From Octopus vulgaris (Eukaryota): DNA of 64,000 nucleotides. A model generated the notes under the pieces. It was not told the DNA's origin and searched no databases. It saw only the letters and a program-made list of their open reading frames with translations. How positions within the stretch are numbered: position 1 is the stretch's first letter; each line of letters begins with the position of its first letter. Made by a program: the position numbers and the translations under genes. Location: contig OX597832.1 in the NCBI GenBank assembly GCA_951406725.2, positions 51,956,001-52,020,000 on the forward strand. Reading direction: 5' to 3'. Positions 28,501-55,500 of the stretch are shown piece after piece.

Positions 28501-31500
28501 AGCCTTGTGAGTGTGTTTGGTAGACGGAAACTGAAAGAAGCCCGTCGTATACATGTATGTCTGTGTTCCGTGTTCGTCCCTTCCTGTGTTTCACGTTCAT
28601 TATATATAAAAACATTCATTCATTTATATATATGTACGTGTGTGTATATGTTTGTGTGTCTGTGTTTGCCACCCCAAAATCACTTGACAACTGATGCTGT
28701 TGTGTTTACGTCCCTGTAACTTAGCGGTTTGGCAAAAGAGACCGATAGAATAAGTACTAGGCTTACAAAGAATAAGTCCTGGGATTGATTTGCCCGACTA
28801 AAGGCAGTGCTCCAGCATGGCCACAGTCAAATGACTGAAACAAGTAAAAGAGTAAAAAAGTAATGAGTATTAGTACTGGGATGAAATCTTTCATAGCTGC
28901 AGTCTGTTGACTGATACAAGTAAAAAAATTTTTTTAAATGTAAATGTAAAAGGTAAAAATATAAAAATATTTCTTACTGTGATCTTCAAAGAATGCTAAA
29001 CTAATTTCTCCAAAAGCTCTTCGGATATTTGCCTTGATTCCTTTCGGAGGTTCATTGGTAACTTTAATGCTGTTTTGTAATACACTAATTGGAAAATCTT
29101 TTGAAGGCTTGGAACTCAGGAAAAGCCTGAAATCATCATGTATTTGTTCCGGTTCATCTGTAAGTGCCTTGAGAGTTTCCTCCATAGAAGGCATCCAAGA
29201 AGCAGCTAGATGACAATTCTAAAAGGAATATTTATTGAGAGAGAGGAAACTTTTGAGATATATTTTGAAATTGTCTGAGAAATAAATTATAGAAACCAAC
29301 CTGTTTTTATTTGGATCCTATAACAATGGATGGGATGGAAGCACTCCGTCGGTTACGACGATGAGGGTTCCGGTTGATCCGATCAACGGAACAGCCTGCT
29401 CGTGAAATTAACATGTAAGTGGCTGAGCACTCCACAGACACGTGTACCCTTAACGTAGTTCTCGGGGATATTCAGCGTGACACAGAGAGTGACAAGGCCG
29501 GCCCTTTGAAATACAGGTACAACAGAAACAGGAAGTAAGAGTGAGAGAAAGTTGTGGTGAAAGAGTACAGCAGGGATCACCACCATCCCCTGCTGGAGCG
29601 TCGTGGAGCTTTAGGTGTTTTCGCTCAATAAACACTCACAACGCCCGGTCTGGGAATCAAAACCGTGATCCTATGACTGCGAGTCCGCTGCCCTAACCAC
29701 TGGGCCATTGCGCCTCCACATAACAATACTTTCAAGTATGAACAGAAAGTAGGATGTTTGTTCAAAGTAAGAGGGTACAAGTTTACAAAGGCAAGAATGA
29801 TAATATCTACAGAGGCAGGATATTCTCCACATAAGCTTTGTTTTATCCAACACAACATTGTTTTAAACTTGTTGGCCTATATATTTTTTGCTATATGGAA
29901 GCGTCTTCCAACCAAAATGCAAATATATAGGAAACTACCACCTGTGTCATCTCTTGTGAAAGGTAGGAGAGTCCAGTTTGCTGGACATTGTTGTAGAGCT
30001 GAAAATGAGGCAATTTCTACTCTTCTCCTCTGGAAGCCATCTACTCGTGATACCAGAGGGCGCACACTCTCCTACCCTGATGTAATCTCCAGGGATACAG
30101 GCATCCAGCAACAGGACCTCCGTAATGTTATGATGGACCGTGAAGTCTGGCGTAGCATGGTAAATACCATTGTCTCGACCACGGTCGAACAATGATGATA
30201 ATGATGATATGTGATAATCTATGCACATACACACACACATATATATTCCTTTATTCCTTTGGGGTTTTTTTTGTGTGTTCCTGCCCAAAAACTGTGGCAA
30301 TGCTGGGGTATCACCATTATCATCACCTGTTCAATAGCTGTTCTTATGTGGCTGGCTTTCAGTGAATGAGAGAATTTGTTATTGTTGCCTTGACTTGAGT
30401 TTTTTGCGATGATATAAGCTCATTTGGATCTTGGACAGTGGAAAGTCAAGATGCTTCTTGAAAACATCTACTCCCACTCCATGTAAATCTCTTAGGTATT
30501 TCGGTGAGATATTAAACAGCTGTGGGCTCTTGAAACCCAAGATATGGTAGTACCTAACCCTTATTCTAGACAAGGTGACTGAGGCTTTTGTGCAGCAATG
30601 CCCTGTTCAGGGGATATGTAATTCTTGATGCCAAAGTTTGGTGCCAGACAATTTAAGCAAAGAATTATTATTTGTAAAAACATTTTCAAACTCCACCCGT
30701 CTAACACCCGTGGACATATTTACAAAGTCAGAAAACAGCACAGCTCCCATGACTTTAGGAAACATTTTTTCACGCTGATAGTTGCTGAAGCATGGAACAA
30801 ACTGCCGGCATCGGTTGTTAGTTGTCGGAGCACTGCATTCTTCAAAACTTCCATGCTTCCTGAGATTTGCCAACACTACACCTGATTTCCTCCCCTCCAT
30901 ACACACACAAGCATGTATCTGACTCATACATTGTTTGCTTTCCAGACATTTGTACATTACTGCATATACTTTATACGCACTTTCTGACAAGTTGTGGTGC
31001 ACCTGAGCACTGTATACAATAATTTCATTATTATTATTATTATTATATACCTAGGTACATGGACTTGTTTAGAATATTGAAGAGAAATTTATAAAGGCCT
31101 TTTAACCCTTTAGCATTCAGATTATTCTGTCAATTGTAATGCTTATTAACTTATATTGTTTTGAATTAAACATGCATTTTCATATAGCTTCAAGATTTCA
31201 ATGATGCAATTGTTTATTTGTAAGAATGACATTATAGGGTCTGTGTGAGAGGTTGGATCTGGACAATTTGACCATAAAACAAGTAGAACATTTCAGCCGG
31301 ATATGGCTGGCTTAAATGCTAATGGGTTAAACATGTATTCCTAAGTTGCTAAATAGATTTGGACATGCTGGTGACATTAAGCAAAATAATAGCAGTAACC
31401 TGTGTTTGTAGAAACAGGTTTATGTGGAGTTTGAATGATATTTATAATGTATAAGCAAACCAACAAAAGAGTGTCTACATAGTTGTTTGATCTGCTATAA

Positions 31501-52500: not shown

Positions 52501-55500
52501 ACGTTAGCACGTCGGGTGAAGTGCTTAGCAGTATTTCGTCTGCCGTTACGTTCTGAGTTCAAATTCCACTGAGATTAACTTTGCCTTTCATCCTTTCGGG
52601 GTCGATAAATGAAGTACCAGTTATGCACTGGGATCGATGTAATTGACTTAATCCGTTTGTCTGTCCTTGTTTGTTCTCTCTATGTTTAGCCCCTTGTGGG
52701 CAATAAAGAAATAAGAAATAAGAAATAAATGCATATGGAATGATCACACATCCTAGAAAAAGATATATATATGTATATGTATATATGTGTATGTGTGTGT
52801 GTATATATGTATGTATGTATGTATGTATGTATGTATGTATGTATGGAAAGCAAAAATTTATGTATGAAGAAAATGTATGTATCTATGACAGTTGTCTTGC
52901 AGAATGCTATGAAAATGATTTTGCTATAGTATTTTGTTTGGTATTTGAAAACTGATTAAGTTTTGAATAAATACTCACAGCATCCACCTTTATCTTGGTC
53001 TAGAACAAGCTTTTCCATCAAAGCATTTGTGTCGGCTGACTTCTGTTTTAATCTCTTTGTGCATCATTAGCAATGGCTTGTGTTTCGTCTGTTTTAGCTT
53101 TTGCAATGGCTTCGTCCTCTACCACAACTTTTCTTACCTGCAGTAATTGAATAACACAATATTGAGATTGTATATATGTGTGTACATGCATGAACACATG
53201 CACGCATGCACGCATGCATACACAGACACAGACACACACACACACATTAATGACAAATCAACCAATCAAAAGCAAAATCAAATACGATAACTGGCGTCTG
53301 TGCTAGCAGGGTGCAAAGAGCACCATACGAGCGTGATTATTGACAGCGGCTAACCGACTTCCGTGCCAGTGGCACTTAAAGGGCATCATTCGAGCATGAT
53401 TGTTACCAGCGTCACCTTACTGGCACTTGTGCCCGTGCTAGCAGGGTACCAAGAGCACCATCCGAGTGTGATCGTTGCCAGAACAGCCAACTGGCTTCCG
53501 TGCCAGTGGGCACGTAAAAGGGCGCCATTCGAACGTGATCGTTACCAAAATCGCCTTCTGGCACCTGTGCTGGTGGCATGTATAAAAGGATTCGAGCAAG
53601 GCTATTGCCAGTACTGCCTGACTGGCCCCCGTGCACCCACTACACTCTCGGAGAGGTTGGCGTTAGGAAGGGCATCCAGCTGTAGAAACTCTGCCAAATC
53701 AAGACTGGAGCCTGGTGCAGCCATCTGGTTCACCGGCCCTTAGTCAAAATCGTCCAACCCATGCTAGCATGGAAGGTGGACTTTAAACGATGATGATGAT
53801 GATGATGATGATGAAAGCTTTTAATATAAGCAATATTAAATTATATCTTAAGGTGGTGAGCTGGCACAGTAGTTAGCACACAGGGCAAAATGCATAGTGG
53901 CGTTTCATCTGGCTTTATGTTCTGAGTTCAAATTCCGCTGGGGTTGAATTTGCCTTTCATTCTTTCAGAATTGATAAATTGGACACTGGATGGAGGCGAG
54001 GTGGGGTCAATGTAATTGACTTACTCCCGCTCCCTGAAACTGCAGGATAGTGAATGTTATATAAGCATGCAGCATTCTGTTTGCGTGTATACCTATATAT
54101 ATATATTTTGTATATCAGACGCAAGCTGTTGTATATAATTTGTTTATCAGCATAATTGCCTTTCTCTCTCTGTGCATATATATATATATATATATATATA
54201 TATATATATATATACAATTTATAAGTAAGGGCAAAAGAAAAAAATTCTAATGCCAAAATATGCCAAAAATGGACACTATGTCAATAACCATGTAATTTAT
54301 CACTACAAGCACGTGTTTCAAATAAAGCAGACAGAAATTTCTAAAAAATTCCATTATTACCATATCGGACCTGATTTCAGAGTTGGTTCATAAGAACCTT
54401 CTCTTCATCAGTGATAAAGGTGGTAAAGGAATAAGTGAAATACTTACTTATACCCATGTATATATATATATATATATTGTATATGTGTGTATGTGTATGT
54501 GTGTGTGTGTGTATATATGTATGTGTATGTGTTTGTGTGTTTGTGTGTATGTATGTATGTATGTATGTATGAGATTCTTGCAGAAAGCTATGAAAATGAT
54601 TTTGCTATAGTATTTTGTTTGGTATTTGAAAACTGATTAAGTTTTGAATAAATACTCACAGCATCCACTTTATCTTGGTCTAGAACAAGCTTTTCCATCA
54701 AAGCATTTGTGTCGGCTGACTTCTGTTTTAATTCTGGTTCAAGTGCAACGAGTTCTTTTTTCATTTTAGCAACAATTTCATTTGTCTCCAAGAGCTTTTT
54801 CACACCATTTTTCACTCGAGCTTCAGCAGTTTTTATGGAACTGAATAACAAAAGCATAACCTTACATGAGAAGCCATGAGCTCTTCAAAAATACAAGTAA
54901 AACTTCTAGATTAAAAAAAAAAAATATCAAAAACAACAAAACACAAGCAACAAGCGTAATATTATGTTTATCAAGAGAAGTCAGCGTAGGAGTGGCTGTG
55001 TGGTAAGTAGCTTGCTAACCAACCACATGGTTCCGGGTTCAGTCCCACTGCGAGGCATCTTGGGCAAGTGTCTTCTGCTATAGCCCTGGGCCGACCAATG
55101 CCTTGTGAGTGGATTTGGTAGACGGAAACTGAAAGAAGCCTGTCCTATATATGTATATATATATATATATATATATGTATGAGTGTGTATGTGTTTGTGT
55201 GTCTGTGTTTGTCTCCCTAGCATTGCTTGACAACCGATGTTGGTGTGCTTACGCCCCCGTTACTTAGCGGCTCGGCAAAAGAGACCGATAGAATAAGTAC
55301 TGGTCTTACAAAGAATAAGTCCTGTGGTCGATTTGCTCGACTAAAGGCGGTGCTCCAGCATGGCCACAGTCAAATGACTGAAACAAGTAAAAGAGAGAAA
55401 AGAGAGTATGTTGAAGTAATGAGAGTAGGCTGAATGTCATTCAGGTAAACTAAATGCAAGTTGAGATTATGGAGATAAATAATTCTATAATTGGGAATGT

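What the first reader, a model, noticed from the sequence alone, without database searches (positions are those of the whole stretch)
31332..54732. Recurrent short non-tandem local duplications, 1-4 kb from their templates
Seen: at least six events in about 25 kb. 52895-53052 matches 54576-54732; 31712-32189 matches 29036-30254; 37525-37676 matches 41219-41389; 37236-37435 matches 39065-39263; 36819-37043 matches 35222-35487; 32631-32674 matches 31332-31375 (inverted). Three carry exon sequence together with intron, so they are DNA-templated or pre-mRNA-templated, not processed mRNA. Divergence differs between events, implying repeated occurrence over time. Inference: a mutational process that patches breaks with neighbouring sequence (synthesis-dependent end joining, or LINE RT acting on nascent RNA), seeding pseudo-exons. 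This may be an under-recognised source of exon duplication in this genome.
Basis: partly seen in the sequence, partly recalled or inferred. Interest (0 to 1): 0.7.

Follow-up and report, generated by a model that had tools for sequence, protein, structure and literature searches.

The report
Local repair copies in octopus dynein
Introns of an octopus-like animal's ciliary-type dynein gene hold five short pieces copied from 1-4 kb away, likely scars left when chromosome breaks were patched from neighbouring DNA (a kind already described in vertebrates), while a sixth piece, which breaks an exon, is missing from the other animals checked and may be an assembly error.

Summary
All six pairs are in the sequence and far above chance. 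The host is a DNAH6-like dynein gene of a cephalopod. Five events fit repair-mediated duplications (RDs; Pace et al. 2009). Two interrupt known repeats, so their empty sites show 2-4 bp microhomology and 0-8 bp loss. One has a 29-30 bp target duplication plus a 3-base filler; one sits in a fold-back patch. None has a poly(A) tail. Both exon copies in introns are dead. The sixth (52895-53052) replaces 39 coding bases and makes a stop. Three DNA runs and a probable RNA run show the intact exon, so it is a private allele or an assembly error. In 1.86 Mb sampled from 16 chromosomes, such pairs decay steeply with distance, come in both orientations, and have median length 148 bp and spacing 1.1 kb, as in humans. 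They are no commoner in dynein genes than in arbitrary blocks, which argues against an RNA template. About half of the sampled candidates are really repeat families. The window is a local cluster. A rate above vertebrates is possible but not shown. This scan met single RDs before in cat and shark genomes.

The parts
13456..62589 (-). Host gene: DNAH6-like axonemal dynein heavy chain, about 34 exons mapped in the window, continuing beyond its high end
52895..53052 (+). Event 1 copy. Replaces the last 39 coding bases and the splice donor of exon 53137-53051; 2-bp microhomology (AT); gives an in-frame TAA. Private allele or assembly error
54576..54732 (+). Event 1 donor: 3' part of exon 54839-54659 with its splice donor and intron, beside (TATG)n
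31712..32189 (+). Event 2 copy (acceptor): 182 bp of exon with acceptor AG plus intron; 1-bp frameshift; GA microhomology at one end, 3-base filler (32190-32192) at the other
31685..31713 (+). Event 2 target duplication, left copy (29 bp)
32193..32222 (+). Event 2 target duplication, right copy (30 bp)
29036..30254 (+). Event 2 donor (exon 29218-28979 and upstream intron). Interrupted by a SINE-like element (29328-29719, 8-bp target duplication) and a LINE-like 3' fragment with an (ATG)n tail (29883-30208), both absent from the copy
   Evidence: family labels recalled
37525..37676 (+). Event 3 copy, inserted into a SINE-like repeat (about 37473-37757); CC microhomology, about 7-8 bp of target lost; splice acceptor deleted in the copy
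41219..41389 (+). Event 3 donor: part of exon 41352-41167 and upstream intron
37229..37438 (+). Event 4 copy, inserted into a mariner-like MITE (about 37044-37466) with next to no target loss; short microhomology at both ends
39058..39266 (+). Event 4 donor (intron; holds part of an old dispersed repeat)
35213..35487 (+). Event 5 copy (inferred acceptor), ending 9 bases from the splice donor of exon 35640-35497
36812..37043 (+). Event 5 donor (inferred): continuous on its left with a dispersed repeat (36776-36861)
32631..32674 (-). Event 6 inverted copy (inferred acceptor), inside a patch (32604-32711) of short direct and fold-back repeats
31332..31375 (+). Event 6 donor, right beside a TTAA-ended MITE

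Best explanation
Five of the six pairs are real local copies that were likely made when germ-line double-strand breaks in introns of this dynein gene were patched from DNA 1.2-3.6 kb away. Shown: one copy of each pair is the insertion (directly for events 2, 3 and 4; by indirect signs for 5 and 6). Shown too: 2-4 bp microhomology, small target loss, filler or a target duplication at the joints, no poly(A) tail, both orientations, and several ages. Inferred: a resected 3' end annealed by microhomology to a nearby stretch of the same chromatid, sister or homologue, copied 44-480 bases, let go and rejoined the other end (synthesis-dependent strand annealing or Pol-theta-type end joining). A staggered break would give the 29-30 bp target duplication of event 2, and repeated short priming would give the fold-back patch of event 6. 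The copies decay neutrally and the exon copies are dead. The sixth pair has the same anatomy but breaks an exon and is absent from the other animals checked: a private null allele or an assembly error, about even odds.
For: Empty sites in other repeat copies: 14 of 218 hits span the rejoined flanks of event 4 and 222 of 281 span those of event 3, against 0 of 2 for each donor. Target duplication, GA microhomology and filler at event 2. Fold-back patch at event 6. No A/T tail at any of the 12 copy ends. In 1.864 Mb from 16 chromosomes, pairs that are two-copy in the sample number 23,900, 11,400, 2,600 and 1,000 per Mb^2 at 0.3-1, 1-2, 2-5 and 5-10 kb, against 150-220 beyond 10 kb and 108 between blocks. 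The 51 merged events are 31 direct and 20 inverted, with median 148 bp and 1,138 bp apart; human RDs have median 147 bp and mean spacing 1.2 kb (PMC2671141). Rates: 9 in 400 kb of dynein paralogue blocks, 30 in 1.2 Mb of arbitrary blocks. Two more two-copy insertions in interrupted repeats lie outside the window.
Against: The 29-30 bp target duplication is longer than the 4-21 nt seen by Pace et al.. Event 1 removed at least 39 coding bases plus the splice donor, far more than their 1-15 nt. Five events in 13 kb is a cluster (0.33 expected at the raw outside rate, P 2e-5 before allowing for selection; at most 3 in any 13 or 26 kb elsewhere), whereas Pace et al. saw no clustering. Events 5 and 6 have no empty site. 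Whether the arbitrary blocks are genic is unknown. 3 of 6 randomly drawn outside candidates were repeat families, not local copies, so the distance curve and the size and orientation figures are inflated by repeat-internal structure.
Confidence: 0.75

Rival explanations
1. Replication template switching (FoSTeS/MMBIR): a stalled nascent strand jumps 1-4 kb, copies a stretch and jumps back, with no two-ended break.
For: Gives the same microhomology and proximity. Five of six pairs in the window are direct. Neighbouring events have matching divergence (events 2 and 6: 3.8% and 2.3%; events 4 and 5: 7.7% and about 7.4%; Fisher P 1.0 each), as multi-jump episodes would give.
Against: Return to within 0-8 bases of the start point (events 3, 4) suits a held second end better. 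20 of 51 sampled events are inverted. Sequence alone cannot separate this from break repair.
Confidence: 0.12
2. A LINE reverse transcriptase copied nascent dynein pre-mRNA into nearby nicks (class 1 templated sequence insertion).
For: Event 2 has a target duplication and its microhomology lies at the end that sense-RNA priming would use. A near full-length LINE lies in the window. RNA patches without tails are proposed for class 2 TSIPs (PMC5110952 passages).
Against: No tail on any copy, while the real retro-insertions here show an 8-bp target duplication or an (ATG)n tail. TSIP donors are distant. Proximal RDs in human never had tails, 0 of 39. No excess in dynein genes.
Confidence: 0.06
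3. The pairs are leftovers of longer tandem duplications cut down by later deletions, or chance neighbours of low-copy repeats.
For: Half of the randomly drawn outside candidates are repeat families. Events 4 and 5 hold repeat sequence. Event 1 can be drawn as duplication plus deletion.
Against: Events 3 and 4 split repeats whose two halves rejoin almost exactly. Four events are two-copy genome-wide. Event 6 is inverted.
Confidence: 0.05
4. For event 1 only: it is an assembly or polishing error beside two similar (TATG)n tracts, not DNA of any animal. The confidence given is for this event alone.
For: The copy is 152 of 153 identical with one homopolymer indel and about one short-read long. 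DNA contigs of X1, X2 and X7 stop matching at 53051 and run on unlike the window; contigs cross the donor's end unbroken; the probable RNA contig of X4 holds 37 letters that the window lacks between the two exons. The rest of the gene has open exons.
Against: A 2-bp microhomology joint is a repair signature and not an obvious product of consensus polishing (own knowledge). A heterozygous null allele can be assembled. It is unknown whether any run laid is the assembled animal. Contigs drop rare variants.
Confidence: 0.5

Closest known systems
Repair-mediated duplications (RDs), Pace, Sen, Batzer and Feschotte 2009, PMC2671141 (parts 1-5 of 8 of the text read: abstract, results, most of the discussion; methods and supplements not read)
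   Same: Two copies within 5 kb, 50-620 bp long, median about 147 bp and about 1.2 kb apart; microhomology, small deletion, filler, sometimes a target duplication; no poly(A); exons and splice sites copied into neighbouring introns; found inside interrupted repeats.
   Different: A mollusc, where that survey covered vertebrates only. A longer target duplication (29-30 bp). A local cluster. Possibly a higher density: 2 strict events in 0.62 Mb of repeat-derived DNA outside the window, 3.2 per Mb (95% CI 0.4-11.6), against 0.62 in human; not significant (P 0.06) and methods differ.
'Doublets', Thomas et al. 2004 (paper not read; known only as described in PMC2671141)
   Same: Short, close, two-copy local duplications ascribed to imperfect break repair.
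   Different: That class is near-identical and under 100 bp; these are longer and up to about 10-16% diverged.
Templated sequence insertion polymorphisms, classes 1 and 2 (Onozawa and Aplan 2016, PMC5110952; 7 passages read)
   Same: Class 2 has microhomology, small deletion and filler at the joints. Event 2 shares the class 1 target duplication.
   Different: TSIP donors are distant and thought to pass through RNA; class 1 needs a poly(A) tail, which is absent here.
Pol-theta-mediated end joining with templated insertions (recalled; search listing only)
   Same: Short direct and fold-back fillers as at event 6; microhomology priming.
   Different: Its inserts are usually much shorter and taken from the immediate flanks (recalled); Pol theta was not looked for in this genome.

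Membership tests
Repair-mediated duplication (Pace 2009) | Donor on the same chromosome, 50 bp to 5 kb from the acceptor | tested here: met
   1.26-3.57 kb for all six
Repair-mediated duplication (Pace 2009) | Insert of at least 50 bp and under about 620 bp | tested here: met
   152-478 bp for events 1-5; event 6 is 44 bp, under their detection cut-off
Repair-mediated duplication (Pace 2009) | [quoted passage not shown] | tested here: met
   Events 1, 2, 3, 6. Events 4 and 5 hold part of a repeat and would fail their filter, though the neighbour is the only full-length match
Repair-mediated duplication (Pace 2009) | Acceptor identified by an empty site (interrupted repeat or orthologue) | tested here: met
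   Events 3 and 4 by interrupted repeats; event 2 by its target duplication. No empty site for events 5 and 6; no orthologues tested
Repair-mediated duplication (Pace 2009) | Microhomology, deletion or filler at the joints | tested here: met
   Events 1, 2, 3, 4, 6; event 5 cannot be judged
Repair-mediated duplication (Pace 2009) | No poly(A/T) tail | tested here: met
   0 of 12 copy ends
Repair-mediated duplication (Pace 2009) | Germ-line event present in real DNA | tested here: inconclusive
   Event 1 absent from 3 of 3 DNA runs laid.
Class 1 TSIP / LINE-mediated retrocopy | Poly(A) or LINE-type tail | tested here: not met
Class 1 TSIP / LINE-mediated retrocopy | Target-site duplication | tested here: inconclusive
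   Clear at event 2, a looser direct repeat round event 6; none at events 3 and 4
Class 1 TSIP / LINE-mediated retrocopy | Distant, transcribed donor | tested here: not met
   Donors within 4 kb; no excess in dynein genes
Functional duplicated (mutually exclusive) exon | Intact frame and both splice sites in the copy | tested here: not met
   Event 2 copy: truncated and frameshifted; event 3 copy: acceptor deleted, truncated, stop follows
Pol-theta-mediated end joining | Genetic dependence on Pol theta | not testable with these tools
   needs mutants

The most novel reading that the evidence does not exclude
Octopus genomes patch germ-line breaks from neighbouring DNA far more often than vertebrates do: roughly 1.2 events per 100 kb after halving for repeat families, tens of thousands genome-wide, 5-20 times the human figure. 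The events come in multi-jump bursts at local hotspots such as this 13 kb. That would make repair capture a main supplier of the duplicated exons seen in cephalopod genes.
Probability: 0.25. Interest if true: 0.5.

Novelty: new member of a known kind. Interest (0 to 1): 0.22.

Why it matters
It extends a known vertebrate mutation class to a mollusc, with almost the same size and spacing, which suggests a shared physical limit on template search. The copies here have no sign of function. If the rate is really several-fold above vertebrates, it would offer a testable source for duplicated exons and intron growth in cephalopods. Practically, this reference carries a broken DNAH6-like exon that other animals do not, so annotators should not call the gene a pseudogene from it.

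Tried and rejected
1) All six are dispersed repeats: rejected for events 1, 2, 3, 6 (two places only); partly true for 4 and 5. 2) The host is a pseudogene that tolerates insertions: rejected, since the exons mapped are open and a probable RNA contig joins three exons in order. 3) DNA-transposon ends trigger the copying, suggested by events 4, 5 and 6 and one outside case: no enrichment, 19 of 204 boundaries near repeat termini against 28.4 +/- 5.7 by chance. 4) Microsatellites anchor the jumps: 44 of 204 against 38.7 +/- 6.2, P 0.22. 5) One single episode made the cluster: event 3 is older than event 2 (exon parts 12 of 121 against 3 of 182, P 0.002); events 2+6 and 4+5 may be shared episodes. 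The counts for the event 5 unique part and event 3 intron part were read by eye. 6) A first automated interrupted-repeat test found only 1 of 79 pairs and missed event 4. The empty-site test flagged 9 arms among 85 pairs; 4 held up, 4 did not on inspection, and 1 (C5, 56 bp spacer) was not inspected. 7) No RNA holder is on record for 31400-33100, so splicing of the pseudo-exons was not tested. 8) Two papers asked for by DOI were not held and nothing is taken from them. 9) Searches for a cephalopod or invertebrate report of this class (listings only) showed none; most subscription journals are not covered. The supplements of PMC2671141 were not read.
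Full report
Setting. The window is G000:C19:51956001-52020000 of a 2.8-Gb genome. It holds the 3' part of an axonemal dynein heavy chain gene on the minus strand: Pfam AAA_9, Dynein_heavy and Dynein_C. The best relative is an Argonauta protein at 81%, and most named hits are DNAH6. About 34 exons map between 62589 and 13456. A weaker-scoring paralogue lies on C14. The organism is therefore taken as an octopus-like cephalopod. 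The introns are full of SINE-, MITE- and LINE-like repeats and microsatellites; those family labels are recalled, not from a library.

Observation. After masking tandem repeats, all six pairs stand out and align as stated, at 76-486 bits against at most 42.8 bits in 10 shuffles. Events 1, 2, 3 and 6 occur at these two places only in the genome. Event 4 carries about 145 bp of an old repeat, but its neighbour alone matches all 210 bp at 92%. Event 5 is similar.

Which copy is the insertion. Event 2: 31712-32189 lies between two copies of a 29-30 bp target (31685-31713, 32193-32222), with GA shared at one joint and a 3-base filler at the other. Its donor holds two retro-type insertions that the copy lacks. 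The exon part differs by 3 of 182 bases and the intron parts by 10 of 263, as expected if only the donor exon is constrained. Event 3 splits a SINE-like repeat: 222 of 281 hits span the rejoined flanks, with CC microhomology and about 7-8 bp lost. Event 4 splits a mariner-like MITE (3,162 candidates in the genome): 14 of 218 hits span the rejoined flanks with next to no loss. Event 5: the 36812 arm is continuous with a dispersed repeat on its left while the 35213 arm starts abruptly, so 35213-35487 is the likely copy. Event 6: the 32631 arm sits in a patch of short direct and fold-back repeats, so it is the likely copy. No copy end has an A/T tail. The two exon copies in introns are dead: one is truncated and frameshifted, the other has lost its acceptor.

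Event 1 is different. The copy starts inside exon 53137-53051 at a shared AT, puts TAA in frame, and the 13 codons that other dyneins have there are not found between 50700 and 54700. Four runs were laid on 50700-54900. A 2,495-letter contig of the probable RNA run X4 joins exon 54658-54840, exon 53051-53135, then 37 letters that the window lacks, then exon 50754-50865. With the 2 letters shared with the acceptor this gives 39 bases. DNA contigs of X1 and X2 (organism A, two samples) and X7 (organism C) all stop matching at 53051 and run on unlike the window (295 letters in X2, 301 in X7), and contigs cross the donor's end at 54732 unbroken. So 0 of 4 runs show event 1 among the pieces listed, though the tables were heavily cut by repeat noise. 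It is a private null allele or an assembly error; I cannot tell which. Two samples hold 74% and 58% of the sampled words of 31400-33100, and 3-10% divergence with target duplications and split repeats is not what an assembler makes.

How common. I fetched 1.8 Mb: 200 kb around the window, 400 kb at three other dynein genes, and twelve arbitrary 100-kb blocks; 16 chromosomes in all. Of 340,650 BLAST hits, 302 pairs were two-copy within the sample. Their density falls from 23,900 per Mb^2 at 0.3-1 kb to 11,400 (1-2 kb), 2,600 (2-5 kb), 1,000 (5-10 kb) and 150-220 beyond, against 108 between blocks. Merging 85 pairs of 40-700 bp gave 80 events, 51 of them at least 300 bp apart: 31 direct, 20 inverted, median 148 bp, median spacing 1,138 bp. 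Six are in the window and 45 outside (2.5 per 100 kb): 9 in 400 kb of dynein paralogues, 30 in 1.2 Mb of arbitrary blocks, 6 in the 200 kb of flanks. Against this: of 6 candidates drawn at random from 41, 3 were true local pairs and 3 were repeat families; for two of the six only part of the arm was searched. The real rate is thus nearer 1.2 per 100 kb, with wide error. By the strict published test (insert inside an interrupted repeat, two-copy genome-wide) 2 events lie outside the window in 0.62 Mb of repeat-derived DNA: 3.2 per Mb, 95% CI 0.4-11.6, P 0.06 against the human 0.62 and 0.007 against the zebrafish 0.19. The methods differ, so a higher rate is possible but not shown. The window is a cluster: 5 events in 13 kb where 0.33 are expected at the raw rate, and at most 3 in any equal span elsewhere. 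It was picked for that reason, and events 2+6 and 4+5 have matching divergence and may be two shared episodes. Boundaries are not enriched at repeat ends or microsatellites.

Mechanism. Shown: polarity, microhomology, small target loss, filler, target duplication, no tails, proximity, both orientations, several ages, no excess in dynein genes. Inferred: a germ-line break, resection, annealing of a 3' end to nearby DNA, short synthesis, release and rejoining. Fork template switching would leave much the same trace (0.12). A LINE enzyme on nascent RNA fits only the target duplication of event 2 (0.06).

Known class. Pace et al. 2009 (PMC2671141, parts 1-5 of 8 read) found 824 human duplications within 5 kb of their donors, median 147 bp, mean spacing 1.2 kb. 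All 39 proximal cases that they inspected had repair-type joints and no poly(A), and 6 of the 39 had target duplications of up to 21 nt. They found whole and partial exons copied into introns, and examples in ten vertebrates. The five real events meet these features, with the exceptions listed in the membership test. Three searches listed no cephalopod report, so this is a new member of a known kind. Earlier notes of this scan describe single such copies in cat and shark genomes; their claims were not checked here.

Verdict. Real, known in kind, with no sign of function; one of the six events is doubtful. Interest 0.22. The open point worth a whole-genome run is whether octopus RDs are several-fold denser and more clustered than vertebrate ones (probability 0.25, interest 0.5 if true).

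Noticed in passing
window 37931-37966: A 36-bp dispersed sequence (39 other matches listed in the genome, most over exactly this span) sits on the 5' edge of exon 37934-37812 and seems to replace its splice acceptor and first 4 bases. With the normal donor at 38901 no in-frame acceptor exists; only a weak upstream donor (38909) with an AG at 37950 keeps the frame. A second possible lesion or assembly error in this gene.
   Followed up: partly
window 53051-53137: The reference lacks 39 coding bases of this dynein exon that other animals and a transcript contig have; gene models from this assembly will be broken.
   Followed up: yes
window 1699-4919 (-): Near full-length LINE: endonuclease ORF and reverse transcriptase ORF in two frames, with a weak PHD-finger match (E 3e-4, below the cut-off) after the RT domain.
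   Followed up: no
window 12716-13291 and 42640-43211: Two 576-bp inverted copies (92.5%) of a fragment that reads like a mariner transposase (recalled; no Pfam hit).
   Followed up: no
window 8912-9257, 22024-22255, 7189-9461, 7249-7957: Further short close repeats outside the finding: inverted pairs about 120 bp apart (85%, 95%) and two weak pairs 0.6-2.1 kb apart.
   Followed up: no
window 54578-54900: In run X7 (organism C) contigs over this exon have depth 198-269 against 22-24 at neighbouring exons, as if this stretch were amplified in that species.
   Followed up: no
L088:4161-5247 (G000:C5): A composite copy: one inverted 87-bp piece and one direct 162-bp piece side by side, both from the same donor 0.6-0.9 kb away; a two-step template switch.
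   Followed up: no
L063:193-1577 (G000:C1): A 165-bp copy of the inside of an abundant 1.2-kb element with terminal inverted repeats lies just outside that element's end.
   Followed up: partly
L085 (G000:C5:50020428-50028683) and L136 (G000:C4:30032079-30037761): Multi-kb near-perfect inverted repeats (97-100%), probably fold-back elements or inverted duplications.
   Followed up: no
G000:C14:56943005-57046779: A second DNAH6-like gene (52-73% to the Aplysia protein against 58-83% for the window's gene); its identity was not resolved.
   Followed up: no
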